Part shown: positions 1-37,979 of the stretch, in pieces
Numbering within the stretch: position 1 is the stretch's first letter
Layout of the letters: each line of letters begins with the position of its first letter
Virus record (IMG/VR): IMGVR_UViG_3300028603_000027
Location: 1-64,000 of that record
DNA from: a virus
Lineage: Duplodnaviria > Heunggongvirae > Uroviricota > Caudoviricetes
Length of the DNA stretch: 64,000 bases
Direction: 5' to 3' (one strand)
Notes under the pieces: generated by a model
What the model was told of the DNA's origin: nothing
Database searches by the model: none
What the model saw: only the letters and a program-made list of their open reading frames with translations
Position numbers and translations under genes: made by a program

Positions 1-221
1 TTCCCCCACAAGGAAATTACACTTCGGGCAATCCGGCTCAAACTTCTATTGCTTTGTTTAAAGAAGGTGCAGCAGAGGCTTTTCAGGCTAACTGGTATTG
101 GTCTTCAACAGAATATAATTCGTCGCATGGTTGGCTTCAGGGCTTCCACTTTGGTTATCAGAGCACCCGCTACAAGTCTGGTGCGCTCTGTGTTCGGGCC
201 GTTCGGCGTGTTCCAATCTAA
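1..221 (+). CDS. DGR target protein, 3' part (5' end outside window); C-type lectin/DUF1566-like C-terminus containing VR1
   Basis: Frame 3 is open from the window start to TAA 219-221. Translation ends ...NWYWSSTEYNSSHGWLQGFHFGYQSTRYKSGALCVRAVRRVPI, paralogous to the C-termini of ORFs 28997-29383 and 35736-36131. The last 84 nt match TR 903-986 except at TR adenines. Confidence 0.75.
   Translation, partial: PPQGNYTSGNPAQTSIALFKEGAAEAFQANWYWSSTEYNSSHGWLQGFHFGYQSTRYKSGALCVRAVRRVPI
118..201 (+). repeat. DGR variable repeat VR1
   Basis: 84-nt alignment to TR 903-986 with about 20 substitutions, all at positions where the TR has A. Ends with the shared GC-rich tgttcgggccg. Confidence 0.85.
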
Positions 222-376: not shown

Positions 377-721
377 ATGTTGGAAATGTTGAAAAGTAAT
401 TTTGTTAAGTATTCTGTAGGTAAAGATAAGTGCTTGGATAAGTACAAGAGTGCTGTTGACTTTATAAGTTCTATTACACATATTGTTAAACGCACATCAT
501 TTCCACTAAAGATAGTGGTAGGAGAACCAATTATTCAGATGGGTTATGACATTTCTGTAGCTTTACAGGAGTATTATAACAAGGAAGATGAGTTTTTCTA
601 CATACCTTCTAAAGTGGATTTAAATGCGCGTTTACGTGTTGCGAAAGATTTGGGCATCCTGAAGGACAAGGATTATGCTCGAATTATATTGCTAGTTGAC
701 AATATTTACAAAGATTTGTAA
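377..721 (+). CDS. avd: Accessory variability determinant (Avd)-like small protein
   Basis: 114-aa ORF lying between the VR-bearing target gene and the TR/RT, the canonical target-avd-TR-RT order. Basic, helical-looking sequence; no direct motif evidence. Confidence 0.5.
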   Translation: MLEMLKSNFVKYSVGKDKCLDKYKSAVDFISSITHIVKRTSFPLKIVVGEPIIQMGYDISVALQEYYNKEDEFFYIPSKVDLNARLRVAKDLGILKDKDYARIILLVDNIYKDL

Positions 722-902
722 AATACGACGCTAGCAAAATCGGGAGCAAAACATAACTGAATATTTTGGTATTCTCCCTGTCGAAAGACACGGATAAGTT
801 GTTTAAAGCTTTAATTAGATGTTTCATTTAATTGCGGCCTTAAATGACAACTGATCGGAACTTCTAAATGTTGTTCTGATTGGTGTGTAATAGGATACAA
901 AC

Positions 903-986
903 ATTCGTCGAATGGTTGGAATCAGAACTTCAACAATGGTAATCAGAACAACAACAACAAGACTAATGCGAACTATGTTCGGGCCG
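903..986 (+). repeat. DGR template repeat (TR)
   Basis: attcgtcgaatggttggaatcagaac...ttcgggccg, about 31 adenines, AAC-rich in the target reading frame (codes SSNGWNQNFNNGNQNNNNKTNANYVRA). Three cognate VRs differ from it only at A positions. Confidence 0.85.
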
Positions 987-996: not shown

Positions 997-2079
997 TTGT
1001 GTTTTATTTGTTGCGCCCTTGAGGGTGTATTTAAAGGGTTGATTTTGCAGCACGTACCTTGCGATATTGAATTTGAAGAGTTGGTGGAAGCTTACTTCGA
1101 TTGTCGGCGTAATAAAAGAACCACACACTCTGCTTTAGATTTTGAAATGAACTTAGAAGAAAATCTTCTACAACTCTATCATGAATTGAGAACAGGAACC
1201 TATGAGATTGGAAAATCTATATGTTTCGTCGTTAAAATTCCTAGAGTGAGGGAGATTTGGGCAGCAAACTTTAGAGATAGAATTGTACATCATTTGATAT
1301 ACAACAGGATGTCTCCGAAGTGGAATAGAAGATTTAGTGCTGATAGCTGTGCCTGTATTCCAGGCAGAGGAACGCTATACGGTGCGACAAGATTGGAAAA
1401 GCATATACGATCTTTCACAAATAATTGGGAAAAGGATTATTGGTATTTGAAGTGCGACTTGTCAAACTTCTTCGTATCAATAAAGAAGGATGTTTTGTGG
1501 TCTTTAATGGAGCCTTCCATTGAGGATGGTTGGTTAAAAGACATCACTAAGTTGGTGTTGTATAGTGACCCCACTAAAAACTTCACTCTCAATTCAAGAG
1601 ATTGGGAAGCAGAACTCGTTCCCGAGAGAAAGAGATTATGTCTAGCAGGAGAAAATACAGGCTTGCCTATTGGCAATTTAACGAGCCAATTCTTCGCTAA
1701 CATCTTGTTGAATGAGCTAGATAAATTTGCTAAACATACTTTGAAAGCTAAGAAGTATATCCGTTATGTTGATGATTGTATCATCTTAGCGGAAGACAAA
1801 GAAACGCTCATTGAAATGAAGGCGAAAATGGATGAATTTGTGAAGACGATTGGACTTTCGTTCAATCCGAAGAAATGTTTCATTCATAAGATAAACAGAG
1901 GAGTCAGCTTTGTGGGCCAAACTGTCTATCCTCATCGTCGTGTGCCTTTAAAGAACACTGTAGACAAATGCATTGAGAAAGCGATCACCTCTCCAGATTC
2001 TATTCCCTGCTTTATAGCTTATTTTGAACAAGCAGAAAAATCTTATAATTTAGTACAAAGGTTTTTGATAAACACGTAA
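997..2079 (+). CDS. DGR reverse transcriptase
   Basis: RT motifs are present: LPIGNLTSQFFANILLNELD (the DGR-specific IGxxxSQ signature) and YIRYVDDCIIL (YxDD catalytic box). It lies immediately 3' of the TR. Confidence 0.9.
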   Translation: MCFICCALEGVFKGLILQHVPCDIEFEELVEAYFDCRRNKRTTHSALDFEMNLEENLLQLYHELRTGTYEIGKSICFVVKIPRVREIWAANFRDRIVHHLIYNRMSPKWNRRFSADSCACIPGRGTLYGATRLEKHIRSFTNNWEKDYWYLKCDLSNFFVSIKKDVLWSLMEPSIEDGWLKDITKLVLYSDPTKNFTLNSRDWEAELVPERKRLCLAGENTGLPIGNLTSQFFANILLNELDKFAKHTLKAKKYIRYVDDCIILAEDKETLIEMKAKMDEFVKTIGLSFNPKKCFIHKINRGVSFVGQTVYPHRRVPLKNTVDKCIEKAITSPDSIPCFIAYFEQAEKSYNLVQRFLINT

Positions 2080-23683: not shown

Positions 23684-23693
23684 GAGACAAATA

Positions 23694-24095
23694 ATGAAAT
23701 GGATGTCCGTGTGGGATATGTGTCGTATCCCTGAAGTAAAAGACATCCTTCTCGCTGACGATTTGACAGAAACTTATAATCTGTTGTATGATGTTGGATT
23801 CGATATTAACAAAGAAATTTACGTTGAGTCTTGCTATCATAGAACAATATACAAAGAAGTGGTATATGCCCCTCGTTTTGTAGGGGAAGAAAGATTAGAT
23901 GATAGCTGGATAAATAGTGGCTACGCTTCAGAAGAAGCGTGGAAAATTTTAGTCGGAAAGAAGGATGTATCGTTGTTACGATTATTGGAAGAGATGAGTA
24001 AGGAGTCTAACTTCACTGGAGAGATTACAGAACATCTCTCAAACTATTGGGGAAGTGGTAGTGAAATGACAAGGTGTATTGAAGTGAGTTTGTGA
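23694..24095 (+). CDS. Hypothetical protein
   Basis: ORF only. Confidence 0.4.
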   Translation: MKWMSVWDMCRIPEVKDILLADDLTETYNLLYDVGFDINKEIYVESCYHRTIYKEVVYAPRFVGEERLDDSWINSGYASEEAWKILVGKKDVSLLRLLEEMSKESNFTGEITEHLSNYWGSGSEMTRCIEVSL

Positions 24096-24149
24096 CATGC
24101 AGGGCGTTACAAATATAGGTTTAAACAATAATTGGGAGGTAATTTCATT

Positions 24150-25163
24150 GTGAGCGGTACGGTTAGAATTTTGACTCCAAAGGAAACATATACTACTGAC
24201 TATCCTCAAGCAGTTGCTGCTGCTGAAGAACAAGCTAAAATCATTTGGTTTGCTAAAGAGTTGGGTGTAGAGAAAGATGAAGATGACATCAGAACAAAAT
24301 GTACAGAAGGTGAGCGGCATGGTATTACAACTGTCCTGCGTTTGTTCACACAATATGAATTGATGTTAGGAGGAGATGAGTTTTGGGGAGGAAAAGTATA
24401 CAAAATGTTTCCTCGTCCTGAAATTCAACGGATGGCTTCTACCTTCTCTTTTATTGAGTTGGGTGTTCATGCGCCATTTTATGATCTTATAAATAAAACA
24501 TTAAATATTGCCACAGATGAATTTTATTCTTCGTGGAAAGAAGACGCAGTATTAAAGGAGAGAATGGCCTTTGTTTCCAAGTATGCAGATGAAGACGACC
24601 CTTTAATTTCTACGGCAGCGTTTGCTTTCATGGAAGGTGCGGTATTGTTTAGCAGTTTTGCATTTCTGAAAAGTTTTAACAGTGGAGGTCATGGCTTGAT
24701 TCCGCACATTACTGCTGGAATTGACGCTTCAGCTAAAGATGAAAACTTTCACAGCATGGGCAGTGCATGGCTGTTTAATCAATGTTTTGAAGAAATGAAA
24801 GAAGCTAAATTGTTCCCTAAGGGTAGACAGAAGGAAATTCGGGAAACAATTTATGCTATTGCTCGTACTGTCTACGACCATGAATACAGAATCATTGATA
24901 TGATTTTCGAGAAAGGCGGTATTCGTACAGTAACAAAGGCAGAAATGCTTCACTTTGTTCGCAATAGGATTGACGTTGTTTTGTCTTATCTAAAGATGAA
25001 GCCTTTGTTTGGAGATGAAAAAGGTGTTGTTAGTGAGTGGTTTTATAATCAATTATCCTCTTATAAGTATTCTGATTTCTTCCATGCACAACAAATTCAG
25101 TATGTACGTTCATGGGAAAAGCATAAATTGACTTTCAGACCTTATATGGAGGAGCAGGTGTAA
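24150..25163 (+). CDS. Ribonucleotide reductase small (beta) subunit, class I
   Basis: Ferritin-like motifs FAFMEGAVLFSSFAFL and IDASAKDENFHS; immediately upstream of the large subunit. Confidence 0.7.
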   Translation: MSGTVRILTPKETYTTDYPQAVAAAEEQAKIIWFAKELGVEKDEDDIRTKCTEGERHGITTVLRLFTQYELMLGGDEFWGGKVYKMFPRPEIQRMASTFSFIELGVHAPFYDLINKTLNIATDEFYSSWKEDAVLKERMAFVSKYADEDDPLISTAAFAFMEGAVLFSSFAFLKSFNSGGHGLIPHITAGIDASAKDENFHSMGSAWLFNQCFEEMKEAKLFPKGRQKEIRETIYAIARTVYDHEYRIIDMIFEKGGIRTVTKAEMLHFVRNRIDVVLSYLKMKPLFGDEKGVVSEWFYNQLSSYKYSDFFHAQQIQYVRSWEKHKLTFRPYMEEQV

Positions 25164-26857
25164 TGGCAAAGAGTTTTGAACAATTAAGCGATGAACGGAA
25201 AAAGCTACAAGCAGAAGGGCTAGTACCTGAGTGGTATACAACACAATCTTATCAGATGTTTACTTCCAAGTATGCGTTTCCAGGCGAAAATAGTGTACGG
25301 GGAAGGTTTGAAACAATTGCAAGAACGTTGGCGAAGCACATGATAGGTCAAGAAAAAGAATGGGAAGAGAAATTCTTTAATCTTATGTGGAAAGGATGGC
25401 TCTCTCCTGCTACGCCCGTTCTTGCAAACACAGGTACAGATCGTGGTATGCCAATTTCTTGCAGTGGCGGTGTGATTGGGGATAGTGTCGATAGTTTTTA
25501 TAAAGCTCTCCATGAACAAGCAATGCTATCCAAGTATGGCTTCGGGTGTTCGGGGTATTTTGGAGATATTCGCCCACGAGGGAGCAATATTAGTCGAGGA
25601 GGAAAAGCCAGCGGCGCTGTCCCTGTCATTGAAGATTTTGCTTTGATGGCATCCAAGATTTCTCAAGGGTCTAGTCGTCGGGGTGCTACAGCATCTTATC
25701 TACCTCTAGATCATGGAGACTTTGATGAGCTTATTGACTTGCTTGAGCATGAAACAGACGGCCTTCACATTGGGTGGGTGGTGAGTGATGGTTTTATTGC
25801 CAAACTCAAGACAGGAGATAAGGAAGCTAATCGGCGTTTTCAACGTGCTTTGTATGTCAAGCTTGTTACAGGGAAAGGGTATTTCTTTTTTGTAGATAAG
25901 GCGAACAGGCAACGTCCACTTATGTATAAAGATTTGGGGCTTGATATTAAAGCTACTAATCTGTGCAGTGAAATCATGCTTCATTCATCAGAAGCACTTT
26001 CTTTTTCTTGTGTCCTTTCAAGCATGAACCTTTATCGGTATGATGAATGGAAAGACACGGATGCTATCTATGAATCAACTGTGTTTCTGGATTGCGTGGT
26101 CAGCGAGTTTATTAATCAATCTGAAGGTGTACCCGGTCTAGAGAAAGTAAGGGACTTCACTATTCGCGGTAGAGCTATTGGCTTGGGAGTGTTGGGGTTC
26201 TCTAGCTATCTACAAAAAAATAGGATTGCTTTTGAAGACCTAGAAGCTCATTTTCTTAATAATGAGATTTTCAAGGCATTGCACGATGAGTCTCTAAGGG
26301 CTTCAGAGTGGCTTGCACAAGCTTATGGAGAACCAGAGTGGTGTAAGGGTTATGGGGTGCGTAATACGCATAGAACGGCTTTAGCTCCTACAAAGTCCAC
26401 TAGCCTGCTTCAGGGCGGGATGAGTGAATCTGTTTTTCCTGACCCAGGTATGGTGTTTGAGCAATCAAGTGCAGCAGGTGGTATGAGTCGTATCACTCCT
26501 GAGTTTTATAAGCTCATGGTGGAACGAGGGAAGTACACGCAAGACACAATTGACAGTATTATTAAAAATGTGGGAAGTGTACAACATTTAGACTGGCTTA
26601 CAGAGCAAGAAAAAATGGTGTTCCGTACTGCGTTTGAAGTGAGCCAAGATACGATTCTTCGTTATGCTTCTGTAAGGCAGAAGTGGATTTGTCAAGGACA
26701 GTCTTTAAACTTCTTCTTCTCGGAAGACGGCGATGAAGATCGGATTGCAGAGATTCTCACTAAAGCATTTTTGGATGAAAACATTCTTTCTGTGTATTAC
26801 TTTTATTCTCGGAGTGGAGTGATTGTTAGTGCAGATTGTGAGGCATGTTCTGCGTAA
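25163..26857 (+). CDS. Ribonucleotide reductase large (alpha) subunit
   Basis: Active-site motif KATNLCSEI and C-terminal ...CEACSA. Confidence 0.7.
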   Translation: MAKSFEQLSDERKKLQAEGLVPEWYTTQSYQMFTSKYAFPGENSVRGRFETIARTLAKHMIGQEKEWEEKFFNLMWKGWLSPATPVLANTGTDRGMPISCSGGVIGDSVDSFYKALHEQAMLSKYGFGCSGYFGDIRPRGSNISRGGKASGAVPVIEDFALMASKISQGSSRRGATASYLPLDHGDFDELIDLLEHETDGLHIGWVVSDGFIAKLKTGDKEANRRFQRALYVKLVTGKGYFFFVDKANRQRPLMYKDLGLDIKATNLCSEIMLHSSEALSFSCVLSSMNLYRYDEWKDTDAIYESTVFLDCVVSEFINQSEGVPGLEKVRDFTIRGRAIGLGVLGFSSYLQKNRIAFEDLEAHFLNNEIFKALHDESLRASEWLAQAYGEPEWCKGYGVRNTHRTALAPTKSTSLLQGGMSESVFPDPGMVFEQSSAAGGMSRITPEFYKLMVERGKYTQDTIDSIIKNVGSVQHLDWLTEQEKMVFRTAFEVSQDTILRYASVRQKWICQGQSLNFFFSEDGDEDRIAEILTKAFLDENILSVYYFYSRSGVIVSADCEACSA

Positions 26858-26945
26858 TTACAACATTGAAAATTAGTTGTTGACATTGAGGGCGATGGGA
26901 ACTATAGTTGTTCCTGTCGCCTTTTCTTTTATCTAGAGGAATTAA

Positions 26946-27281
26946 ATGCAACCTACTGAAGAACAAGTTGTTAACAAGTGGATTTCACTAAAGAACAGTG
27001 CAGCTAGTCGAAAATTGAAATTTGATTTGACCGTTCTTTCGGTTAGAAATCTTCTACGAGCAGAAAAATGTTTTTATACAGGCGTTAGCTTTAATTCTAA
27101 GATGAGGGGTTTAGGTAAAACAATAGATCGGATAGACCCTAATAAGGGGTATGTCAGAGGGAATGTGGTAGCGTGTACAGATGGGTACAATCAAGCTAAA
27201 GCCCAATGGGAGAAGCTAGATAAGAAAGGTGTAAGAGCCATGATTAGACAGTTGAAAATTATTGAGGAGAGAATGAAATAA
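26946..27281 (+). CDS. Hypothetical protein
   Basis: ORF preceded by the promoter TTGACA-17-TATAGT at about 26876-26905. Confidence 0.4.
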   Translation: MQPTEEQVVNKWISLKNSAASRKLKFDLTVLSVRNLLRAEKCFYTGVSFNSKMRGLGKTIDRIDPNKGYVRGNVVACTDGYNQAKAQWEKLDKKGVRAMIRQLKIIEERMK

Positions 27282-27595
27282 TGTACAAGCTTTTTATAGA
27301 TGATGAGAGATTTCCAATCGACCCTCATTGGTTTGTAGCCAGGAATTCTTTTGAAGCAATCAAAGCCATAGACCTTTACGGCATCCCTCAAGAAATAGCT
27401 TTTGACCATGATTTAGGTGGACAGGATACGGCTATCATCTTTATAAATTGGTTGGAAGACAAGTTGGTAGAAGGGGTGTATAATCTTCCTCAAGGCTTCA
27501 TTTGGAGTGTACACAGTCAGAATCCAATTGGGGCTAAAAACATACAGGCACGAATGGAAGACCTAGCTGATTATTTTGGAGAAAAGCATGTCTAG
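27281..27595 (+). CDS. Hypothetical protein
   Basis: ORF only. Confidence 0.4.
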   Translation: MYKLFIDDERFPIDPHWFVARNSFEAIKAIDLYGIPQEIAFDHDLGGQDTAIIFINWLEDKLVEGVYNLPQGFIWSVHSQNPIGAKNIQARMEDLADYFGEKHV

Positions 27596-27932
27596 CTACT
27601 ACCCTGATGGATGGCAGTTTATTAAAATTGAACACAGCGGTAATGTTTTAATTAAGGTGTTTGGAAGTTGGATGGGCAGTTTCACAGAAGGGGAGCATTG
27701 GCGTCTGAACAGCGGTTGTATGAAAATTGAGACAGAAGAGGATACGCTACTTGCTCACGGATACTCAGGTAGTGTATACTTCTTAGATAAAATTACAGAA
27801 GGAAAGCTAGGAAGCTGGAATGGGAGTCAATTGCAGTCAATTATTGATAGTTATCAAGGTGTGCATAAGATTGAACGAATTTCAGCAGAAGAGGCAATTC
27901 TTTTAATTTCAGGAGAGGAAAATGGCAGCTAA
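27576..27932 (+). CDS. Hypothetical protein
   Basis: ORF only. Confidence 0.4.
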   Translation: MEKSMSSYYPDGWQFIKIEHSGNVLIKVFGSWMGSFTEGEHWRLNSGCMKIETEEDTLLAHGYSGSVYFLDKITEGKLGSWNGSQLQSIIDSYQGVHKIERISAEEAILLISGEENGS

Positions 27933-28323
27933 CCGTATGCTGGCACAAATGCGTGGCATTTCGGCTGAAAACGTTGAAGCAATCGACTTAATTCACGAAG
28001 AATTGGAGAAAATGATTGAGAACCACGTTTCTCTAGGCACAGAAGAATCTCTAGTGCTAGAGAAAATTGAGCGGTTGGAGTATCGTCTTCAAGAGTTGTG
28101 GAAGTTTCCTCGTGACCCCGAGAAACATACGTGGAAAACTAGGTATTTATTTAAAAATAATTGGGCTAACACCACATGGAGATGTGAGGAAACAGGAGAC
28201 GTTGTAACAATTCCGTTTGAAGTGGAGGAGACGGATTTCTTTTTAATTGGAAACGGATACATTGATGTGGGAAGGTGGGGAAGCTATTCTCGCCGCGCTG
28301 GTAACTTAACTAAAATCGCTTAG
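27922..28323 (+). CDS. Hypothetical protein
   Basis: ORF only. Confidence 0.4.
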   Translation: MAANRMLAQMRGISAENVEAIDLIHEELEKMIENHVSLGTEESLVLEKIERLEYRLQELWKFPRDPEKHTWKTRYLFKNNWANTTWRCEETGDVVTIPFEVEETDFFLIGNGYIDVGRWGSYSRRAGNLTKIA

Positions 28324-28334
28324 GAGAAACATAA

Positions 28335-28562
28335 ATGCATTATTACAAAGATTCTTACCTGTTTTCTAGCCTTCCCGAAAAATACCATGTAGAGCTTCTT
28401 GAAGTGGTGGACATTCTAGGGGAATACTCTGAAGACAACCCCAACGGAGTGGCATTAGGGCAAGATTTACTTGGTGCTTTCTTTTGGGAGTTAGCTCCAC
28501 AAGGTATTTTATATTGGGCAGATGTGTTTGAAGAAACTTCAGAGGGACAGGAGAATGACTAA
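28335..28562 (+). CDS. Hypothetical acidic protein
   Basis: ORF only. Confidence 0.4.
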   Translation: MHYYKDSYLFSSLPEKYHVELLEVVDILGEYSEDNPNGVALGQDLLGAFFWELAPQGILYWADVFEETSEGQEND

Positions 28563-28860
28563 GAAGTATTATCTCATTGAAGGAGATTTTTTAGAAACAT
28601 TAAAAAATTACTTTCATACCCGAGGGATGGAACACACGGAACAACTCTTGAGCGACATTCTGATGGACGTAGATGTTTCTGTTTTGAAAGAAGAAGCAGA
28701 GATGTTTCGTTATATCGAAAACATTTCCTTTCCCTATGAAGAAGAGGGTGAGTTTTATTGGGTGGTAAACGATTTACCCGACATGGCAGGCAAGACAATG
28801 GATTTTCGTAGTTATTTAAAATTTATTATGGAAAAACGTAATACAGAAACAATCCATTAA
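28522..28860 (+). CDS. Hypothetical protein
   Basis: ORF only. Confidence 0.4.
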   Translation: MCLKKLQRDRRMTKKYYLIEGDFLETLKNYFHTRGMEHTEQLLSDILMDVDVSVLKEEAEMFRYIENISFPYEEEGEFYWVVNDLPDMAGKTMDFRSYLKFIMEKRNTETIH

Positions 28861-28996
28861 CAAACCATTGTTTTAAAAAGATTGTGGAAAAATAGATACA
28901 CTGTCATATAAGTTGTTGCCAACAAGAAAAATGATGGTATAATTCTAGACATTGGTGGTGAGATTTATGTTTATGAAATTTTTAAGGAGAAAGAAA

Positions 28997-29383
28997 ATGT
29001 CCAATATCGAACTCGTGAAGGATGACGTAGCGTATGTGAATGGCAAGGCTTACAAGCTGGTTCCTATTCCTACAGAGAAGATTTTTATTGGCGAAGTAGA
29101 CGGTAAAAAGTATTACCTTGGCCCTGAGGCTGATCGTCAAATGAATTGGGAGCAGGCTAAGAAGTGGGTCGCGTCGGCTGGCGGTCAACTGATGCCACGA
29201 GAAGTAGGCGTTCTTGCATTCAAAAAGGCTGAAATCCGCAAACAATTTCGTACCGATGATTGGTACTGGCTTGAAGATGAGTACAGTTCGTCGCATGGTT
29301 GGATTCAGTACTTCTACAATGGTAGTCAGGGCTACAGCACCAAGCCTGATGCGTTCTATGTTCGGGCCGTCTTCGTTGAATAA
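28997..29383 (+). CDS. Remote DGR target 2: small C-type-lectin/DUF1566-like protein with C-terminal VR2
   Basis: MSNIELVKDD... start after AAGGAGAAAG. The motif WEQAKKWVASAGGQLMPREVGVLAF is DUF1566-like. The C-terminus SSSHGWIQYFYNGSQGYSTKPDAFYVRAVFVE is encoded by VR2. Confidence 0.75.
   Translation: MSNIELVKDDVAYVNGKAYKLVPIPTEKIFIGEVDGKKYYLGPEADRQMNWEQAKKWVASAGGQLMPREVGVLAFKKAEIRKQFRTDDWYWLEDEYSSSHGWIQYFYNGSQGYSTKPDAFYVRAVFVE
29286..29369 (+). repeat. DGR variable repeat VR2
   Basis: 84 nt aligned to TR 903-986; all mismatches are at TR adenines. Confidence 0.85.
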
Positions 29384-29401
29384 TTTTCTGAAGGAAAATC
29401 C

Positions 29402-29518
29402 ATGAGTGTAGTGTTTACGCTTACAGGCGCAACAATTTTTGTGGCCCTAGTGATTTATGGGGTTAAACAATTGGTTTCTAACGTCAAGTTTAAAGGAGAT
29501 GACGATAATGCAAATTAA
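29402..29518 (+). CDS. Small single-TM peptide upstream of SPFH gene
   Basis: MSVVFTLTGATIFVALVIYGVKQLVSNVKFKGDDDNAN, about 38 aa. Short and speculative. Confidence 0.25.
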   Translation: MSVVFTLTGATIFVALVIYGVKQLVSNVKFKGDDDNAN

Positions 29519-30368
29519 AAATATCATTGCAAGTGTTGTTCTGGCAATTGTAGCCATCATTGGTCTTACTATTGGTTTGGGCAGTTGGTATACCGTGGAT
29601 GAAGGGGAACGTGCTGTTACGCTTTCATACGGTAAGGTGTCAGGCTCGGCAGAGCCAGGGTTTCACTTCAAGATGCCTTTCGTGGAAACTATCGAACGTG
29701 TAAGTGTACGAGCACATACGGTAAGGTTCGATACAGTAGAAGCATACAGCCGTGACCAACAACCTGCCACGCTTGCAATCAGTGTTACATATCGCATTCC
29801 AGCAGATAGCGTAGAATCCCTGTACACCATGTACGGTAATCGTCAGAATATGCAAGGCCGTGTAATTGACCGAAAGCTTCCAGATGAAGTGAAGAATGTG
29901 TTTGGACAATACACAGCTATCCGGGCCATCCAAGAACGTGCTTCTCTTGTTATTGGTATTAATGAGGCTCTACGAAAGAGTGTAGAGGGACAGCCCGTTA
30001 TTATTGATAGTGTTCAAGTAGAAGAGATTGCTTTTTCAGATGCTTATGAACAATCTGTTGAACAGCGTATGAAGGCAGAGGTGGAAGTGTTTACACGAGA
30101 ACAAAACCTGAAAACAGAGAAAATCAACGCAGACATTGCTGTTACGCAGGCTAAGGGTCGTGCCGATAGTGCGCTTGCTGAGGCAGAAGCTCAAGCAAAA
30201 GCTATTAAGCTGAAGGGTGAAGCTGAAGCTCAAGCAATTCGTGAACGAGGTGATGCTCTTCGCCAGAATAGCCAGCTTGTTGATCTGATTGCAGCAGAAC
30301 GTTGGGATGGTTCACTCCCTGCCACTATGGTTCCTAACGGTGCTCTTCCTTTTGTGAATGTTCGTTAA
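29508..30368 (+). CDS. SPFH/Band-7 (HflK/flotillin-like) membrane protein
   Basis: N-terminal TM (IIASVVLAIVAIIGLTIGL), an SPFH core starting YTVDEGERAVTLSYGKV, and a C-terminal Ala/Glu coiled-coil AEAEAQAKAIKLKGEAEAQAIRERG. Confidence 0.65.
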   Translation: MQIKNIIASVVLAIVAIIGLTIGLGSWYTVDEGERAVTLSYGKVSGSAEPGFHFKMPFVETIERVSVRAHTVRFDTVEAYSRDQQPATLAISVTYRIPADSVESLYTMYGNRQNMQGRVIDRKLPDEVKNVFGQYTAIRAIQERASLVIGINEALRKSVEGQPVIIDSVQVEEIAFSDAYEQSVEQRMKAEVEVFTREQNLKTEKINADIAVTQAKGRADSALAEAEAQAKAIKLKGEAEAQAIRERGDALRQNSQLVDLIAAERWDGSLPATMVPNGALPFVNVR

Positions 30369-30371
30369 GTG

Positions 30372-30404
30372 GTAATCGGAAGCCCTTCGGGGCTTCTTTT
30401 TCGA
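30372..30404 (+). terminator. Rho-independent terminator
   Basis: gaagcccttcggggcttc followed by ttttt. Confidence 0.55.
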
Positions 30405-30593
30405 TAAAGGAAAAACAATGACAACATTCATATTGGTGTTATACATATTCGGATATAAATCCGCAGCAGCGGAGATGCAAGAATTTAATTCTAAAGCTGC
30501 GTGTGAACATGCAATTATGGAGATAAAGAAAGCCACTGGAAAGATAGCTCCTGTACTGGTTTGTGTTCCTAAGTCCTTGGAGGAAATATAGAA

Positions 30594-30893
30594 ATGACAT
30601 ACGATGAGATTTTGGATTATGAATGGGAGTTTGAAGATGCAGATGCCAACTCCATTCGGGAATACTTGCAAGAGCTATTGTTAAAGCTATGGCAAGAAGG
30701 GGAAGGCTTTTCAGGAAAGCGTCCCTTTGGTAACAGCGGGTGGGAATATGATTTACTCTATCCCCTCGTAGCTATGGGAGAAATTCCAGGGAAGTTAGAT
30801 GACGATGGGTGTCTAGAGAGCGTTAATGGAGAGGCAGGCTATGAGATGGTAGAAAGTCTTATTTACTACGTATTTTCTAGCACAGAAAAATAA
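30594..30893 (+). CDS. Hypothetical acidic protein
   Basis: ORF only. Confidence 0.4.
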   Translation: MTYDEILDYEWEFEDADANSIREYLQELLLKLWQEGEGFSGKRPFGNSGWEYDLLYPLVAMGEIPGKLDDDGCLESVNGEAGYEMVESLIYYVFSSTEK

Positions 30894-30914
30894 CGATTTA
30901 ATCAGGGACGGCTT

Positions 30915-31829
30915 ATGCAAAGTGTTGACATCAACGGGAAGAAATATATTCTCGCAGAACAGGAAGGGATGATTAACATCACCTCTCAAAGCAAGAAAGA
31001 AATAGAAAGGCTTGAAGCTTCTTTTTGTACGGATATTGTGCCGTGCCTCGCAGAAGCCAATGCTGTATTGGCAGGCGGCGCTCTCACAAGTCTTTTTACT
31101 AACAAAGAAGTAAATGATTACGACATTTATTTTAAAAACGTAGAAGGCTTTCAAAGTATTATTAATGATATTTATGACACTCCTGAAAGCGGAAGCGTCT
31201 TGAGCAGTTATGATGTCATAGTAAATTTTGCCACTGATCGGAGTATCCTCTGCAAAGAGAAGTGGAGCGAAAATGCGATTCAATTCATCGTTTATAAAAT
31301 GTTCCCCGACATTCAAGACATTTTTAATGCTTTTGATTTTACTGTTAATATGTGTGCTTACGATTTTGCAACACAACAGATGTGGGCGCATCCAGATTTC
31401 TTGAAACACTGTTCACAGCGTTACCTCTCCTTTAATGGGAGAACAGATTATCCTGTTGTGTCAGCACTTCGGGTAATGAAATATACAGAACGAGGCTATA
31501 CAATATCTAAAGCAGAAATGCTTAGAATTCTCTTCACTATTGCAGCTAAGGAATATAAAGATTGGCAGAGTGTGAAAGAAGAAGTAGGTAGTATGTACGG
31601 AATCCCTGTTGACAAGCTATTTGACGAAACAAAAGAATTTAATCTGGAAGAAGTAGTGCTGCAACTGAACAATTGCGTAGCGTTAGACAAACCTAGGGTT
31701 ATGGCAGAAGCTTACGACACTAAAGATTTGGCGACGAAGTTCCCGCATCTTTTAGATCAAAAGTGGGCAGAAAATAATAACTTTTGGTGGGCGAAAGAGG
31801 CGTATGGGCAAGAACAAGTTCACCTCTAA
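30915..31829 (+). CDS. Pol-beta-superfamily nucleotidyltransferase domain protein
   Basis: The hG[GS]x9-13Dh[DE]h pattern is matched by AGGALTSLFTNKEVNDYDIYF. Confidence 0.4.
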   Translation: MQSVDINGKKYILAEQEGMINITSQSKKEIERLEASFCTDIVPCLAEANAVLAGGALTSLFTNKEVNDYDIYFKNVEGFQSIINDIYDTPESGSVLSSYDVIVNFATDRSILCKEKWSENAIQFIVYKMFPDIQDIFNAFDFTVNMCAYDFATQQMWAHPDFLKHCSQRYLSFNGRTDYPVVSALRVMKYTERGYTISKAEMLRILFTIAAKEYKDWQSVKEEVGSMYGIPVDKLFDETKEFNLEEVVLQLNNCVALDKPRVMAEAYDTKDLATKFPHLLDQKWAENNNFWWAKEAYGQEQVHL

Positions 31830-32217
31830 CCTGAAGATACAATACCTTCAAAATAAAGGACGCAGAGCATTGTTTTCTTTGTTAGAGGGGTTCACATTCT
31901 ATTCAGACGATATGCTAGCGGGACAGCGGGTTTGGGTGGATGTTCCCGCAGGGTTTGTATCTGATGGCGCTTCGACACCTCGTTGGACATGGATATTGTT
32001 CCCGCCTTGGGCAGATTATGGTCAAGCGTGTGTTTTACATGATTTCTTACTAGAAAAGAAAACATACACAGACGGCATAAATACTTTTAAAGCAACAGCC
32101 AAGCAAACAGATATTGTTTTTAAAGAAGCTTTAAATGTGTTGAAAGTTGCCCCTTGGAAAGTATTTTTGATGTATAATGGTGTACGTGTTTGGAACATCT
32201 TTAAAGGAAGGTATTGA
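31804..32217 (+). CDS. DUF1353-like protein
   Basis: VDVPAGFVSDGASTPRWTWILFPPWADYGQACVLHDFL resembles the DUF1353 core. Confidence 0.35.
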   Translation: MGKNKFTSNLKIQYLQNKGRRALFSLLEGFTFYSDDMLAGQRVWVDVPAGFVSDGASTPRWTWILFPPWADYGQACVLHDFLLEKKTYTDGINTFKATAKQTDIVFKEALNVLKVAPWKVFLMYNGVRVWNIFKGRY

Positions 32218-32534
32218 AAATGGAAGATCAAAAGCATTGGTGGAACACGCCAGAAGGAGTCGAATGGTTGTCTAACCAACCGGAAATTGAACAAATGTTT
32301 CTTGAGAGTCAACAAGAGAATTGGTATTGCCGGGGGCAACGTTTTTATATCTGTGAAGAAGGAACACAGGAGTATATCTTAGCTTCTATTACCCGGTATG
32401 GAATGTCTTTAATCTGTTTAGTTGACGGTAACAGGTGGTCGGAGCCTGTAGAAGTAGAAAACAGCTTACGTGTGACAAAAGATGAAATGTCTCGTATAAC
32501 TTGTGGCAGTTCCTACATTCTTTTGGAGAAATAA
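32214..32534 (+). CDS. Hypothetical protein
   Basis: ORF only. Confidence 0.4.
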   Translation: MKMEDQKHWWNTPEGVEWLSNQPEIEQMFLESQQENWYCRGQRFYICEEGTQEYILASITRYGMSLICLVDGNRWSEPVEVENSLRVTKDEMSRITCGSSYILLEK

Positions 32535-32897
32535 ATGACTCTTGCTTTTATTGTTTATTTTATCGGTATGCTCACTCCGTTGAAGATTGCTCTAGTAGCT
32601 TCGTTGATAGGGCTAATAATCTTTGGAATTTTCTATTCTCTTTATTGGATGGATGAGTTGTCTAACTACGAAGATCAGCCATACAACAAGAAGTGGTTGA
32701 AGATTTTGATTGGAATAGTAGCTGCACTGGTGATTACACCTTCTGAACGTACAGCTTACACAATGGCAGGGGCGTATGCAGCGCAACAGATCGCTACACA
32801 CCCTAACACTGCTGAAGTGGGTAGTAAAGTGATGGGTATTCTTAATCAGAAATTGGATGGATACATTAAAGACACTGCTGAAAAGAAAGAGGATTGA
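32535..32897 (+). CDS. Membrane protein (2 TM)
   Basis: Two hydrophobic helices. Confidence 0.4.
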   Translation: MTLAFIVYFIGMLTPLKIALVASLIGLIIFGIFYSLYWMDELSNYEDQPYNKKWLKILIGIVAALVITPSERTAYTMAGAYAAQQIATHPNTAEVGSKVMGILNQKLDGYIKDTAEKKED

Positions 32898-32902
32898 TAT
32901 TT

Positions 32903-32991
32903 AGGATTATGGGTGGCCCTTCTAATTAGAGAATCGCATAGATATTTCAGATTATGGAGGGCTGTCCTTATTAAGAAAACGCATATACATG
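32903..32991. repeat. Two tandem ~45-bp imperfect direct repeats
   Basis: ttaggattatgggtggcccttctaattagagaatcgcatagata versus ttcagattatggagggctgtccttattaagaaaacgcatataca, about 75% identical. Confidence 0.5.
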
Positions 32992-33636
32992 ATGATTTCG
33001 TAGAAGTGTTTACAGAGCTTCAAAGACGTTTTTAACAGAACACGTATGTTTCCTCAAGTAAGGATATTCAACTTGTTGTAGCCCCTATAACGGCGTCCTA
33101 CAGGTATTGTAGAGACGGTTACTGCTCTCTTGTCAAGGCGTGGCAGTAAATGTGTATGTAAGTAAGGGGTCAGGTGTGTTGTAAGGAAGGTACACAGCTT
33201 GTTGCAATGTAGTCTTTTGTAGTATGCTTCACGTTTCCTTTCCTAGCCTTACAGCTTAGGCTGTTTTCTTCTCTCTGCTTGTTGCACGATAGGAGGCTTG
33301 AGAACAGGCTACAGCATTTTTAGGAACGGGCTGAAGCATTAAAGAACGGGCCAGGACATTATAAAGTTCTAGCTAGAGCATTATGTCCTAGCCAGAACAT
33401 TAGCTGGCGGGAAAGATATCGGCAGCACAAGGGCCAGAAGTCGGAGGAGACAAGAAAATTTTCACTGTTACAAATTTGTGTCTAAAATACAACAGTGGTA
33501 TAAAAACAACACTTGTAACAGATAGAGAAAATCTATCAGAAGTGGAGAGTGATAGAAAAATTCAATTAGAAAATGTTTATCGGTTCGGCAATAATTCTAA
33601 CGTCTTTTAACAGTAGCAACAAAAGGAAACGTAGCA

Positions 33637-33930
33637 ATGCAGCAACAGCAACATAACATAGCTTCTAATATGTCCCATGAGGAAATTTTACGCTATACTA
33701 ATGTTTCAGATGAAGTGCGTAAGATCATAGACGACATGCTAGACACTATTGTTAGCTATGAAAAAGAGATAGAAGCCTTGAACAGGAGTGAAGAGCGGCT
33801 ATCGGAGCAACTAGATTTTGCGCGTGATCTGGTGGAGACGCTAGACTACACAGTAAACCGTTATTCTCGTATGGCTGATTTTAAGAAGGAATACAGCCGG
33901 GTTAGACAAGATACCTATTTTGAAATTTAA
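33637..33930 (+). CDS. Hypothetical protein
   Basis: ORF only. Confidence 0.4.
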   Translation: MQQQQHNIASNMSHEEILRYTNVSDEVRKIIDDMLDTIVSYEKEIEALNRSEERLSEQLDFARDLVETLDYTVNRYSRMADFKKEYSRVRQDTYFEI

Positions 33931-33941
33931 GAGGTGATGCC

Positions 33942-34220
33942 ATGCCAAGGGACGTAAGACTAATTAAAGAGTTCATAAAAAGCCAAGGGAACAAGTTTTT
34001 TACTGTCGAGTTTGAGAAGAAAGACGGAACGCTACGGAAGATAAACGGGCATATAAGAGCAGTACCAGGGCATGACGGAATCAACCCTACAGCACACATA
34101 GACAAATATTTAACGGTAGTATTGGCAGAGAAGGACAAAAACGGTAATGAGCAATGGAGAAATGTTAATATAGCTACCATAAAATCATTAGCTATTGCTG
34201 GTAAAGTGTTTAAGTTTTGA
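33942..34220 (+). CDS. Hypothetical protein
   Basis: ORF followed by a terminator hairpin gccgccac...gtggcggc-ttttt at 34240-34275. Confidence 0.4.
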   Translation: MPRDVRLIKEFIKSQGNKFFTVEFEKKDGTLRKINGHIRAVPGHDGINPTAHIDKYLTVVLAEKDKNGNEQWRNVNIATIKSLAIAGKVFKF

Positions 34221-34496
34221 ACCACAAACGAGAAACCGCACAACATAGCCGCCACACCTAACAAGCGTGGCGGTTTTTCTTTGTCTGTTTGGTTTGTGTC
34301 TGTAATGTTTGATTGGTTGCTATATGTTCCACGTGAAACAGCAGCCCATAGGGGAAAGCCCTTACGCCTTTTGCATTAGGGAATAATTCGGAACGAAATA
34401 ATACGTTTTCCCTATATGCACCGTATTTGCAAATCTTCATAATGGGAACCGTAGACACCTACAACACACCACGAAACAACACAAGGAGATTTCACC

Positions 34497-35015
34497 ATGA
34501 ACAACACTATTACCCGCCAGCAAGCCCTAGAACGTTTGATTTCTCTTGAGTCAGAGGCCGCCCAACTCAGGAAAGTGTTAGATGAAAAATCCTACCCCGT
34601 TTCCCTCTTACCTTACCCCGATAAAACAGACAACCAACAAGCATACTACATAAAGGATGGCGAAAACGGACAATTTGAAGTAGGGGAGATGAGCAGCAAG
34701 AAAACAACAGAAGACCATGCTAACGTGTTTTCTAGTAGAGAAGATGCAGAAGCATACAAGGACGCTATAAATACTTTCTTGATGCTTCGCAAGTGTGAAG
34801 GCAGCACGACAACGAAAGAACGGGTAGCACAATGGTTAATCGAATATGACGTAGAAGCAGAAAAGGTAATTACTACAAGGCGTTATGTACTGAGTAGCAA
34901 GATTTCCCGCCTTAGCCCTGCATTCGATACGGAAGCAAACGCGCAAAAAGCAATTAAAACGATAGGCAAAGACAAGTTAACAGCCTTGTTCAAAACTTCA
35001 CACCACGTAGAATAA
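34497..35015 (+). CDS. Hypothetical protein
   Basis: ORF followed by the terminator gccctgttg...caacagggc-tttt at about 35025-35058. Confidence 0.4.
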   Translation: MNNTITRQQALERLISLESEAAQLRKVLDEKSYPVSLLPYPDKTDNQQAYYIKDGENGQFEVGEMSSKKTTEDHANVFSSREDAEAYKDAINTFLMLRKCEGSTTTKERVAQWLIEYDVEAEKVITTRRYVLSSKISRLSPAFDTEANAQKAIKTIGKDKLTALFKTSHHVE

Positions 35016-35062
35016 AGAAAGACAAGGACACGCCCTGTTGTATAAAAGCAACAGGGCTTTTA

Positions 35063-35263
35063 TTGGACGCTTGCAAAATGAAATTATTTGATGCTAAAAT
35101 ACTAATAAATAACGATGTATTTCATTTTTATATTGAGCCTGGAAAGGATTGTTTTGTAGCTTGTTTGGACGTTAACGGTAAACCTTACGCTGTTTTAGGT
35201 TGCATCGAACAGAAAGACGCTATACAATTACTAACAGAATGGCTTAATGCTTGTCTTAAATGA
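35063..35263 (+). CDS. Hypothetical protein
   Basis: ORF only. Confidence 0.35.
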   Translation: MDACKMKLFDAKILINNDVFHFYIEPGKDCFVACLDVNGKPYAVLGCIEQKDAIQLLTEWLNACLK

Positions 35264-35344
35264 GGGAAACAATGGGCAAGAAAATAGAGTTAATCACTTG
35301 TGCAGCTTTAATGTTTTGTGTTATGATGTTAGTAACATACACAG

Positions 35345-35554
35345 TTGAAAGGATGTAAGGACATGGAAAGCCGGTACAATTGCGTTATTCGTTTTGCTGA
35401 TGGCAGCTACTACACAGGTAGAGCAGGAGAACACGCAACAGGAAATAAAAGCGAAGCCCTGCCATACTCTGAGGTAGAAGCAAAAGCAAAAATTGCAAGA
35501 CTCCAACATACCCCACTATTCAGTAAAGCAAGCATCGAAAAAGTTACAAATTAA
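35345..35554 (+). CDS. Hypothetical protein
   Basis: ORF only. Confidence 0.35.
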   Translation: MKGCKDMESRYNCVIRFADGSYYTGRAGEHATGNKSEALPYSEVEAKAKIARLQHTPLFSKASIEKVTN

Positions 35555-35735
35555 GGGGTTGACAAGTTAAATTTAACACTCTACAATAGCTTTACATTGA
35601 ACGAAACACAAAAGGGTAGGACATGCGGAAGATCACACAAGAAGCAATAAACGCCTTTATGAGCGGGAATGCTTATAATAACGGGAATACAAGGGTTGTT
35701 GGATTGATAAACACACTTTCAAAAAAGGAAACATC

Positions 35736-36131
35736 ATGCAAGCAAAAACAATCATTATTGACGGCGTAGAATACAGCCTTACCCCTGTTAACCAAAACGG
35801 ATTTATCGGAGAGGTGAACGGCAAGCGTTATTATTTGGGGCCGGAAGCAGACGAACAGATGACACAGGAAGAAGCCCGCGATTGGTGCGCTTCCCTGGGT
35901 GATAATTTCGAGCTTCCCTCACGTGTTGTAATGCTTTTGTGTTATAATAATAAGGAATTGCGTAAACAGTTTCAGACTGATGATTATTACTGGACAAATG
36001 ACGAATACGAGAATGATTCGTCGCGTGGTTGGTATCAGACCTTCACCAGTGGTCATCAGGGCTACCACAACAAGACTACTGCGAACTATGTTCGGGCCGT
36101 GCGTGTCGAGGAGGCGAAGCCCCAAAATTAA
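35736..36131 (+). CDS. Remote DGR target 3: small C-type-lectin/DUF1566-like protein with C-terminal VR3 (paralogue of target 2)
   Basis: Paralogous to 28997-29383 (GEVNGKRYYLGPEADEQM..., ELRKQFQTDDYYW). C-terminus SSRGWYQTFTSGHQGYHNKTTANYVRAV is encoded by VR3. Promoter TTGACA-17-TACAAT at about 35566-35595. Confidence 0.75.
   Translation: MQAKTIIIDGVEYSLTPVNQNGFIGEVNGKRYYLGPEADEQMTQEEARDWCASLGDNFELPSRVVMLLCYNNKELRKQFQTDDYYWTNDEYENDSSRGWYQTFTSGHQGYHNKTTANYVRAVRVEEAKPQN
36016..36099 (+). repeat. DGR variable repeat VR3
   Basis: 84 nt aligned to TR 903-986; all mismatches are at TR adenines. Confidence 0.85.
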
Positions 36132-36234
36132 AATGTTTTGCTTTTGAACGTTTTAATACATAGCATCTTGCAAATTAAAAAGTAGGGTGCTATAATTAAA
36201 ACATTGAAACGAAGTTGTTTTATCTTTAGGAGAT

Positions 36235-37977: not shown

Positions 37978-37979
37978 AA

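What the first reader, a model, noticed from the sequence alone, without database searches (positions are those of the whole stretch)
28997..29383. Remote DGR target 2: a small stand-alone DUF1566/C-type-lectin-like protein about 28 kb from the TR
VR2 (29286-29369) matches the TR with about 16 mismatches, all at TR adenines, and the 3' anchor tgttcgggccg is conserved. The protein is only 129 aa, far smaller than typical DGR targets, which are usually tail fibres or large surface proteins. It has its own TTGCCA/TATAAT promoter and sits next to an SPFH membrane protein. One DGR diversifying three genes is uncommon, and a trans target at this distance more so. It may be a diffusible or cell-surface binding module.
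Basis: seen in the sequence. Interest (0 to 1): 0.8.

Follow-up and report, generated by a model that had tools for sequence, protein, structure and literature searches.

The report
Small remote phage DGR target gene
A 128-residue stand-alone lectin-fold protein in the non-structural half of an ~87-kb phage genome is rewritten at chosen codons by the phage's own mutagenic reverse-transcriptase system 28 kb away; this kind of target is already documented, and what the protein binds is unknown.

Summary
VR2 (29287-29369) matches the template repeat (TR, 904-986) over 83 bp with 14 mismatches, not about 16. All 14 lie at TR adenines (P = 5.5e-8). The window has one TR, a DGR-type reverse transcriptase (997-2079) and three variable repeats: VR1 in a 504-aa tail-fibre-like protein, VR2, and VR3 in a paralogous 131-aa protein (35736-36131).

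The strongest evidence is natural variation. A contig from another sample matches the window over 16.9 kb except at 17 positions, all inside VR2 and all at TR adenines. VR1 and VR3 each do the same in other contigs. All three targets are therefore being diversified independently.

An AlphaFold2 model (pLDDT 87) has a C-type lectin fold, closest to the Legionella Lcl C-terminal domain (DUF1566). There is no signal peptide, membrane segment or virion-anchoring domain. The gene lies among replication and accessory genes behind a near-consensus sigma-70-type promoter.

The SPFH neighbour is not conserved in relatives. The rarity claims are overstated: surveys already record non-adjacent phage targets within 50 kb and short DUF1566-only targets.

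Verdict: a real, active, new member of a known kind. The protein's ligand and role are unknown.

The parts
1..221 (+). 3' end of target gene 1, a 504-aa tail-fibre-like protein that follows the baseplate genes. The window start cuts it.
   Evidence: The full gene is seen in L003 8331-9845, after Sheath_initiator, Baseplate_J and Phage_Wedge1 genes. Pfam Lcl_C E = 9.1e-11.
119..201 (+). VR1
   Evidence: 20 mismatches to the TR, all at adenines. It differs at 17 positions from an otherwise identical 10.7-kb stretch of L003.
377..721 (+). Accessory ORF (114 aa) in the position where DGRs carry avd
   Evidence: It lies between target 1 and the TR. It has no Pfam, NCBIfam, PHROG or PDB match, and the single-sequence AF2 model has pLDDT 44. 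Its identity as Avd is not established.
696..724 (+). Sigma-70-like promoter site upstream of the TR and RT
   Evidence: TTGACA-17-TAAAAT, 11 of 12 matches. This is a consensus match only.
904..986 (+). Template repeat (TR). In frame it reads SSNGWNQNFNNGNQNNNNKTNANYVRA, with 12 AAY codons.
   Evidence: It has 30 adenines. The theoretical repertoire is about 10^17.6 peptides.
997..2079 (+). DGR-type reverse transcriptase
   Evidence: Pfam RVT_1 E = 3e-21. It is 30-50% identical to RTs of DGR-bearing phages, including Bordetella, Bacteroides F1/F2/F4 and Shewanella vB_Sb_QDWS. IGNLTSQ and YVDD are visible in the translation.
28916..28943 (+). Sigma-70-like promoter site for the target 2 operon
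   Evidence: TTGCCA-16-TATAAT, 11 of 12 matches with a TG extension. It is one of 16 such strong sites in the window, against 2.4 +/- 1.6 in shuffles.
28997..29383 (+). Target gene 2: a 128-aa stand-alone C-type-lectin-fold protein
29287..29369 (+). VR2 (residues 98-124; beta-strands 100-105, 111-115 and 123-127 of the model)
   Evidence: 14 mismatches to the TR, all at adenines. There are four natural alleles, and every difference is at a TR adenine.
29359..29369 (+). G+C-rich 3' anchor shared by the TR and all VRs. Homology to the TR ends here.
29383..29399 (+). Small hairpin ATTTTC-TGAAG-GAAAAT, 14 nt after VR2
   Evidence: z = -1.9; VR1 and VR3 have comparable hairpins, the TR has none. 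It is not conserved in L005 or L006. Its role in target recognition is unproven.
29402..29518 (+). 38-aa hydrophobic peptide gene
   Evidence: Translation MSVVFTLTGATIFVALVIYGVKQLVSNVKFKGDDDNAN. It is called as a gene in L002, L007 and L008.
29508..30368 (+). SPFH/Band_7 protein gene, apparently in the same transcription unit
   Evidence: Pfam E = 5.8e-35. A terminator-like hairpin follows at 30378-30397.
35559..35587 (+). Sigma-70-like promoter site upstream of target 3
   Evidence: TTGACA-17-TACAAT, 11 of 12 matches.
35736..36131 (+). Target gene 3: a 131-aa paralogue of target 2
   Evidence: 53% identity, E = 2e-41. It has its own orthologues.
36017..36099 (+). VR3
   Evidence: 12 mismatches to the TR, all at adenines. 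It differs at 18 positions from an otherwise identical 9.3-kb stretch of L008.

Best explanation
The gene at 28997-29383 is a working, non-adjacent target of the phage's single diversity-generating retroelement (DGR).

Inferred from the established DGR mechanism (Bordetella phage BPP-1): a transcript carrying the TR (904-986) is reverse-transcribed by the RT (997-2079), with random incorporation opposite template adenines. The resulting cDNA replaces VR2. The shared G+C-rich 3' end (TGTTCGGGCCG) and the shared 5' end (TTCGTCG) direct it there. The same cDNA pool serves VR1 in the tail-fibre-like protein and VR3 in a paralogue.

Shown here: rewriting affects about 13 codons (12 AAY codons plus ACT) on the C-terminal beta-hairpin of a minimal C-type lectin fold, while the scaffold stays under purifying selection.

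Inferred with lower confidence (about 0.5): the product is a soluble, non-virion binding protein made from a host-type promoter in the non-structural part of the genome. It would not be a tail-fibre component, and its ligand is unknown.
For: 1. A-only mismatch pattern. All 14 VR2 mismatches are at TR adenines (P = 5.5e-8). VR1 has 20 of 20 and VR3 has 12 of 12.

2. Isogenic natural variants.
- L007 (sample ERZ27247346) equals the window over 16,861 bp except at 17 positions, all in 29294-29355.
- L003 differs only in VR1, and L008 differs only in VR3.
- Every difference is at a TR adenine.

3. Relatives at 95.6% and 97.3% nucleotide identity carry two further VR2 alleles. Their differences from the window inside VR2 are 12 of 12 and 14 of 14 at TR adenines.

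4. Selection. Against L002, 15 synonymous and 2 non-synonymous codon changes lie outside the VR. Inside it there are 0 synonymous and 10 non-synonymous changes.

5. A DGR-type RT sits next to the TR.

6. The fold is C-type lectin.

7. For the non-virion reading:
- The gene lies after the thymidylate synthase and ribonucleotide reductase genes, amid small accessory genes. This position is conserved in L005 and L006.
- Strong sigma-70-like sites lie just upstream of both small targets.
- There is no signal peptide or membrane segment (maximum 19-residue hydropathy 0.75) and no cysteine.
- The only addition to the lectin core is about 28 N-terminal residues.
Against: - No expression, proteomic or read-level data were available, so the timing and location of the protein are inference.
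- The accessory ORF could not be shown to be Avd.
- The hairpin after VR2 is not statistically significant and is not conserved in more distant relatives.
- Every experimentally characterised phage DGR target is a receptor-binding virion protein, which favours the virion rival.
- Because all three VRs share one TR, they also share one design of binding surface.
- Target 2 scores below Pfam's Lcl_C gathering threshold (16.5 against 34.9 bits).
Confidence: 0.9

Rival explanations
1. The protein is a virion-associated accessory adhesin. It would be a small lectin module that docks on the tail fibre, baseplate or capsid and adds a second and third diversified receptor-binding specificity. Known precedents are adhesins that cap tail fibres and decoration proteins.
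For: Characterised phage DGR targets are receptor-binding proteins (PMC8144416; PMC10743442). The fold's closest solved relatives are adhesin tips: Lcl and the Bdellovibrio Bd2740 fibre C-terminal domain. All three VRs share one TR, and so one design of binding hairpin. The conserved N-terminal beta segment of about 28 residues could be a docking element.
Against: The gene lies 28 kb from the structural module, among replication and accessory genes, behind a host-type promoter. No virion-anchoring domain is detectable. Copy number varies among relatives: no target-3-type gene in the 10 kb downstream in L005, and no target-2-type gene in 10 kb upstream in L009.
Confidence: 0.3
2. The protein is an intracellular diversified binder used in counter-defence or host takeover. 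It would be made early from the infecting genome, and its variable surface would let some members of the phage population neutralise a variable host protein.
For: Neighbouring genes include a Gad2-like gene (precomputed PF26128), a cREC_REC domain protein and, in relative L009, a Lar restriction-alleviation gene. Strong sigma-70-like promoter sites lie upstream of both small targets. The protein has no export signal and no cysteines.
Against: The case rests on genomic context alone. No such DGR target has been described (one search found none). The Gad2 assignment was not reproduced with the local Pfam copy. C-type lectin DGR targets characterised so far act outside the cell.
Confidence: 0.12
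3. VR2 is a fossil: a formerly targeted or duplicated lectin gene that keeps similarity to the TR but is no longer diversified.
For: None beyond the fact that a single sequence cannot show activity.
Against: Four VR2 alleles exist on isogenic or near-isogenic backgrounds, differing only at TR adenines. Non-adenine positions are 100% identical to the TR over 83 bp, even in relative L005, whose protein is about 68% identical.
Confidence: 0.02
4. The similarity among the VRs reflects recombination or gene conversion between paralogous lectin genes plus diversifying selection, with no reverse transcription involved.
For: There are three paralogous C-terminal segments in one genome.
Against: Gene conversion does not produce differences confined to template adenines (46 of 46 mismatches across the three VRs). 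It also does not explain an untranslated, adenine-rich master copy lying next to an RT gene.
Confidence: 0.02

Closest known systems
Bordetella phage BPP-1 DGR (Mtd, Avd, TR, Brt)
   Same: The cassette order is the same: target, accessory ORF, TR, RT. Mutagenesis is adenine-specific, with AAY codons in the TR. The VR lies at the C-terminus of a C-type lectin fold, and the homology has a G+C-rich 3' end. The RT is homologous; Bordetella phages are among the tblastn hits.
   Different: This element has three targets, two of them 28 and 35 kb from the TR. The remote targets are 128-131-aa single-domain proteins, not a 381-aa trimeric fibre-tip protein. The accessory ORF has no detectable similarity to Avd.
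DUF1566/DUF823/Fib_succ_major class of DGR targets ('category d', CLec2; prototype Legionella LdtA) in Wu et al. 2018, PMC5758913
   Same: The VR overlaps an Lcl_C/DUF1566-like domain. About half of that class are short DUF1566-only proteins, as this one is.
   Different: LdtA is a surface lipoprotein with an export signal. Target 2 has no signal peptide, lipobox or cysteine. It is encoded by a phage rather than a cell. It scores below Pfam's gathering threshold.
Non-adjacent and remote DGR targets (Treponema denticola TvpA paralogues; phage-associated DGRs with targets within 50 kb)
   Same: One TR/RT acts in trans on several VRs away from the cassette. For phage-associated DGRs, Wu et al. 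report that such targets nearly always lie within 50 kb, inside the same phage. That is the case here.
   Different: Here activity at each target is shown by isogenic natural variants rather than inferred from a single genome.
Two-target gut-phage DGRs with tentaclins (PMC10743442)
   Same: One TR serves functionally different lectin-fold targets whose hypermutated beta-hairpin is on the domain surface. The role of the extra target is unclear.
   Different: Tentaclins have an N-terminal lectin domain followed by Ig-like domains and lie within the cassette. The targets here are lectin-only and far from the cassette.
Legionella pneumophila Lcl C-terminal domain (PDB 8q4e) and Bdellovibrio Bd2740 C-terminal domain (8oks)
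   Different: Sequence identity is only 10-20%. Both are tips of large extracellular adhesins or fibres, not stand-alone proteins.

Membership tests
Diversity-generating retroelement (system) | TR/VR pair whose differences are confined to TR adenines | tested here: met
   VR2 14 of 14, VR1 20 of 20, VR3 12 of 12 at adenines over 83 bp. P = 5.5e-8 for VR2.
Diversity-generating retroelement (system) | DGR-clade reverse transcriptase next to the TR | tested here: met
   RVT_1 E = 3e-21. 30-50% identity to RTs of known DGR phages. The IGNLTSQ and YVDD motifs are read directly in the translation; that these are DGR hallmarks comes from my own knowledge of the literature.
Diversity-generating retroelement (system) | Accessory protein (Avd or HRDC) | tested here: inconclusive
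   A 114-aa ORF occupies the canonical position, but no family, PDB or homologue match was found and AF2 gave pLDDT 44.
Diversity-generating retroelement (system) | IMH-type target recognition: a G+C-rich 3' end of the VR followed by a DNA hairpin | tested here: inconclusive
   The G+C-rich anchor is present at all three VRs. Small hairpins start 11-14 nt downstream of each VR and none follows the TR, but z is only -0.8 to -1.9. They are absent in L005 and L006.
Diversity-generating retroelement (system) | Ongoing diversification of this particular VR | tested here: met
   Isogenic contig L007 differs from the window only at 17 VR2 positions over 16.9 kb. There are four alleles in all.
Diversity-generating retroelement (system) | RT-dependent, cDNA-mediated transfer from TR to VR | not testable with these tools
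   Needs an RT-dead mutant or detection of the cDNA.
C-type lectin fold, Lcl_C / DUF1566 (PF07603) | C-type lectin fold | tested here: met
C-type lectin fold, Lcl_C / DUF1566 (PF07603) | Score above Pfam's gathering threshold (34.9 bits) | tested here: not met
   Target 2 scores 16.5 bits and target 3 scores 28.6 bits. Only target 1 passes, at 42.5 bits. Target 2 is therefore Lcl_C-like by fold and weak sequence similarity, and is not a curated member.
Phage receptor-binding or tail-fibre protein | Location in the structural module, or a virion-attachment domain | tested here: not met
   The gene lies among replication and accessory genes. Apart from the lectin core there are only about 28 residues.
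Secreted or surface-anchored binding protein | Signal peptide, lipobox or transmembrane segment | tested here: not met
   Maximum 19-residue Kyte-Doolittle hydropathy is 0.75, the N-terminus is charged, and there are no cysteines. This is a simple hydropathy test, not a dedicated predictor.

The most novel reading that the evidence does not exclude
Targets 2 and 3 are not virion parts. They would be an intracellular, antibody-like repertoire: small cytoplasmic lectin-fold binders made early from host-type promoters in a counter-defence gene neighbourhood. The DGR would diversify them so that some phage genomes in the population can neutralise variable host defence or host-factor proteins. That would extend DGR function in phages from entry to post-entry conflict.
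Probability: 0.12. Interest if true: 0.85.

Novelty: new member of a known kind. Interest (0 to 1): 0.4.

Why it matters
This locus shows unusually cleanly that one phage DGR keeps three separate genes diversified in nature, because otherwise identical genomes differ only at the three VRs. It also gives a tractable case for an open question: what the extra, non-tail-fibre targets of phage DGRs do. The two small targets are minimal lectin modules of 128-131 aa with a theoretical repertoire of about 10^17 variants. They lie in the non-structural part of the genome, so expression timing, virion proteomics and pull-downs could decide between an accessory adhesin and an intracellular binder. As a class, however, non-adjacent short DUF1566-type targets are already catalogued.

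Tried and rejected
- Megablast of the region against GenBank phages found no match. tblastn with targets 2 and 3 gave only weak C-terminal hits to EBPR siphovirus 1 and Shewanella phage vB_Sb_QDWS.
- Two IMG/VR scans, one with the single protein and one with alignment A1, found no relatives.
- A profile search of PDB sequences gave spurious hits to designed beta-propellers and only a weak Lcl hit at E = 0.06. Fold comparison was needed.
- Identifying Avd failed by Pfam, NCBIfam, PHROGs, PDB, homologue search and single-sequence AF2.
- The hairpin after VR2 was rejected as strong evidence for a conserved recognition element. It is weak (z = -1.9) and absent in L005 and L006.
- The SPFH gene was rejected as a functional partner. 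L005 and L006 carry the target orthologue without SPFH, and L009 carries SPFH without an adjacent target.
- Target 2 is not a simple duplicate of the tail-fibre lectin domain. Only the VR and about 30 residues before it align, at 41% identity.
- The Gad2 assignment of the 30915-31829 gene comes from precomputed hits and was not reproduced with the local Pfam copy.
- The contig break inside target 2 in L008 was rejected as evidence of heterogeneity. It lies 250 nt upstream of VR2 and fits an arbitrary start of a circular assembly.

Full report
**Observation**

The ORF at 28997-29383 is real. It has an ATG start, an AAGGAG ribosome-binding site 7 nt upstream, and encodes 128 aa.

A BLAST of its 3' part against the window finds exactly three other copies, ending at 201, 986 and 36099. 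The 11-mer TGTTCGGGCCG occurs four times, against 0.32 expected by chance.

Anchored on that motif, the copy at 904-986 is the adenine-rich master (30 A in 83 bases). In frame it reads SSNGWNQNFNNGNQNNNNKTNANYVRA. The other three copies differ from it as follows:

| Repeat | Coordinates | Mismatches to TR | At TR adenines |
|---|---|---|---|
| VR1 | 119-201 | 20 | 20 |
| VR2 | 29287-29369 | 14 | 14 |
| VR3 | 36017-36099 | 12 | 12 |

For VR2 the chance of this is 5.5e-8. The mismatch count is 14 rather than about 16, and the protein has 128 residues rather than 129.

**The system**

The window opens with the end of a 504-aa protein. In the same genome this protein follows the sheath-initiator, Baseplate_J and wedge genes, and it carries an Lcl_C domain.

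- After it come a 114-aa ORF in the position where DGRs carry avd, then the TR, then a 360-aa reverse transcriptase.
- The RT matches RVT_1 at 3e-21. The motifs IGNLTSQ and YVDD are visible in its translation. It is 30-50% identical to the RTs of DGR-bearing phages, including Bordetella and Bacteroides F1/F2/F4.
- A tail-fibre-like gene and an endolysin gene follow.
- The 114-aa ORF could not be shown to be Avd by any method tried.
- A strong sigma-70-like site at 696-724 lies upstream of the TR.

**Genomic setting**

From about 5.5 kb onward, every gene that could be assigned a function is non-structural. These include Prs/NAMPT, primase-helicase, DNA polymerase A, exonucleases, thymidylate synthase, ribonucleotide reductase, ligases and PhoH.

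- The genome is about 87.3 kb. NCBI deposited it as a Gammaproteobacteria MAG (MCK9530423.1).
- It is a novel myovirus-like phage. Its DNA polymerase is at most 57% identical to that of any GenBank phage.
- Targets 2 and 3 sit in the middle of the non-structural half.

**Is VR2 being diversified?**

Yes. This is the strongest result.

- Contig L007, from a different sample, is identical to the window over 16,861 bp (window 21508-38368) except at 17 positions. All 17 lie within 29294-29355.
- L003 differs from the window over 10.7 kb only at 17 positions in VR1.
- L008 differs over 9.3 kb only at 18 positions in VR3.
- Every VR allele differs from the TR only at adenines.
- The three genotypes combine alleles differently. 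The window has VR2a with VR3a, L007 has VR2b with VR3a, and L008 has VR2a with VR3b. The targets are therefore hit independently.
- Two relatives at 95.6% and 97.3% nucleotide identity carry two further VR2 alleles. Their differences from the window inside VR2 are 12 of 12 and 14 of 14 at TR adenines.
- Against L002, the scaffold shows 15 synonymous and 2 non-synonymous codon changes. The VR shows 0 synonymous and 10 non-synonymous.

**The protein**

22 homologues of 121-133 aa were found, all from metagenomes. Their scaffold is conserved and their variation is concentrated at the AAY-templated positions.

- The AlphaFold2 model built on that alignment has pLDDT 87.
- The best viral match is a 115-aa phage 'DUF1566 domain-containing protein'.
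- By sequence, target 2 falls below Pfam's Lcl_C threshold, at 16.5 against 34.9 bits.
- VR residues 98-124 cover strands 100-105, 111-115 and 123-127 of the model.
- There is no hydrophobic segment, no signal peptide and no cysteine.
- Target 3 is a 53%-identical paralogue with its own orthologues.
- Only the VR and about 30 preceding residues resemble target 1.
- A profile search of 1.84 billion cluster representatives finds 2311 relatives at E <= 0.001. Many of the best 150 are stand-alone proteins of 100-170 aa. Small size is therefore ordinary for this domain.

**Expression context**

TTGCCA-16-TATAAT, with a TG extension, lies at 28916-28943. A terminator-like hairpin at 30378-30397 follows the SPFH gene. 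The apparent transcription unit is therefore target 2, a 38-aa hydrophobic peptide (29402-29518) and SPFH.

- Sites matching at least 11 of 12 consensus positions number 16 in the window, against 2.4 +/- 1.6 in shuffles. They are mostly co-oriented with the genes. One lies directly upstream of each small target.
- Relatives L005 and L006 also have 11-of-12 sites, 330 and 54 nt upstream of the orthologue.
- These are consensus matches. Early transcription by the host polymerase is an inference.

**Conservation of context**

- The orthologue keeps its place after the thymidylate synthase and ribonucleotide reductase genes and before a DUF1353 gene in L005 and L006. SPFH is absent there.
- L009 has SPFH, Gad2-like genes, a Lar-like gene and a target-3-type gene, but no target-2-type gene.
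- The SPFH adjacency is therefore not a conserved partnership, and the number of small targets varies among relatives.

**Mechanism**

The DGR mechanism itself is adopted from established knowledge of BPP-1: adenine-mutagenic reverse transcription of TR RNA, then cDNA replacement of the VR. Here it is supported by the pattern of natural variation, not by experiment.

Candidate recognition elements are the shared 3' G+C-rich anchor and a small hairpin starting 11-14 nt after each VR and absent after the TR. The hairpins are weak (z = -0.8 to -1.9) and are not conserved in distant relatives.

**Function of the product**

The function is unknown. My estimates:

- About 0.5 for a soluble, non-virion binder. 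The counter-defence reading (0.12 on its own) is one version of this.
- About 0.3 for a virion-associated accessory adhesin.
- The remainder covers other roles, such as action after release at lysis.

**Comparison with what is known**

- Wu et al. 2018 (PMC5758913) record that about 15% of DGRs have several targets in the cassette and that 45 of 372 have non-adjacent targets.
- They describe many examples among phage-associated DGRs, nearly all within 50 kb of the RT.
- Their target sizes run from 44 to 2697 aa, and about half of the DUF1566-class targets are DUF1566-only.
- Roux et al. 2021 (PMC8144416) already separate viral 'structural' from 'unknown/non-structural' targets.
- Baykov et al. 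2023 (PMC10743442) discuss two-target phage DGRs whose second target has an unclear role.

The finding is therefore a well-documented new member of a known kind. It is not a new kind.

Noticed in passing
window 35736-36131 (VR3 36017-36099): A third DGR target, a 131-aa paralogue of target 2 (53% identity). It has its own near-consensus promoter site at 35559-35587. Its VR differs at 18 adenine-templated positions in an otherwise identical 9.3-kb contig (L008).
   Followed up: yes
window 30915-31829: A 304-aa protein that precomputed annotation assigns to PF26128 (Gad2, anti-Gabija). PHROGs gives unknown-function families and a weak nucleotidyltransferase hit. The local Pfam copy gave no hit. 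Relative L009 carries two such genes plus a Lar restriction-alleviation gene.
   Followed up: partly
window 27281-27595: A 104-aa protein with a cREC_REC (cyclic-phosphate processing receiver) domain, Pfam E = 3.6e-18, just upstream of the target 2 region.
   Followed up: no
window 5589-8106: An adjacent pair of a PRPP-synthetase-like gene (5589-6380) and a nicotinamide phosphoribosyltransferase gene (6394-8106). This looks like an NAD-salvage pair of the sort reported to counter NAD-depleting defences; the link to those reports is from memory.
   Followed up: no
window, whole (sites listed): Near-consensus sigma-70-type promoter sites (at least 11 of 12 matches) are strongly enriched: 16 against 2.4 +/- 1.6 in shuffles. 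They are mostly co-oriented with genes. One, at 696-724, lies just upstream of the TR and RT.
   Followed up: partly
window 377-721: The ORF in the avd position is an orphan. Its only database relative is itself at 99% identity. It has no family or structure match, and the single-sequence model has pLDDT 44 but is mostly helical.
   Followed up: partly
window 254-264 and 283-292: Two extra partial copies of the G+C-rich anchor (TGTTCGGGCAT and GGTTCGGGCC) lie downstream of VR1, just before a terminator-like hairpin at 300-322.
   Followed up: no
window 14968-15215 and 61787-61983: Two tRNA clusters: Arg-TCT, Gly-TCC and Leu-CAA in the first, Glu-TTC and Pro-TGG in the second.
   Followed up: no
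L008 (begins at window 29037); L004 (ends at window 952): The 87,318-bp contig from sample ERZ27247376 is circularly permuted relative to the one from ERZ27247346, with its ends inside the target 2 gene. This suggests a complete circular or terminally redundant assembly. A 58.8-kb contig from SRR8449813 ends inside the TR.
   Followed up: partly
window 29402-29518: A 38-aa hydrophobic peptide gene overlaps the start of the SPFH gene. A 34-aa ORF also precedes the SPFH gene in relative L009; its sequence was not examined.
   Followed up: no
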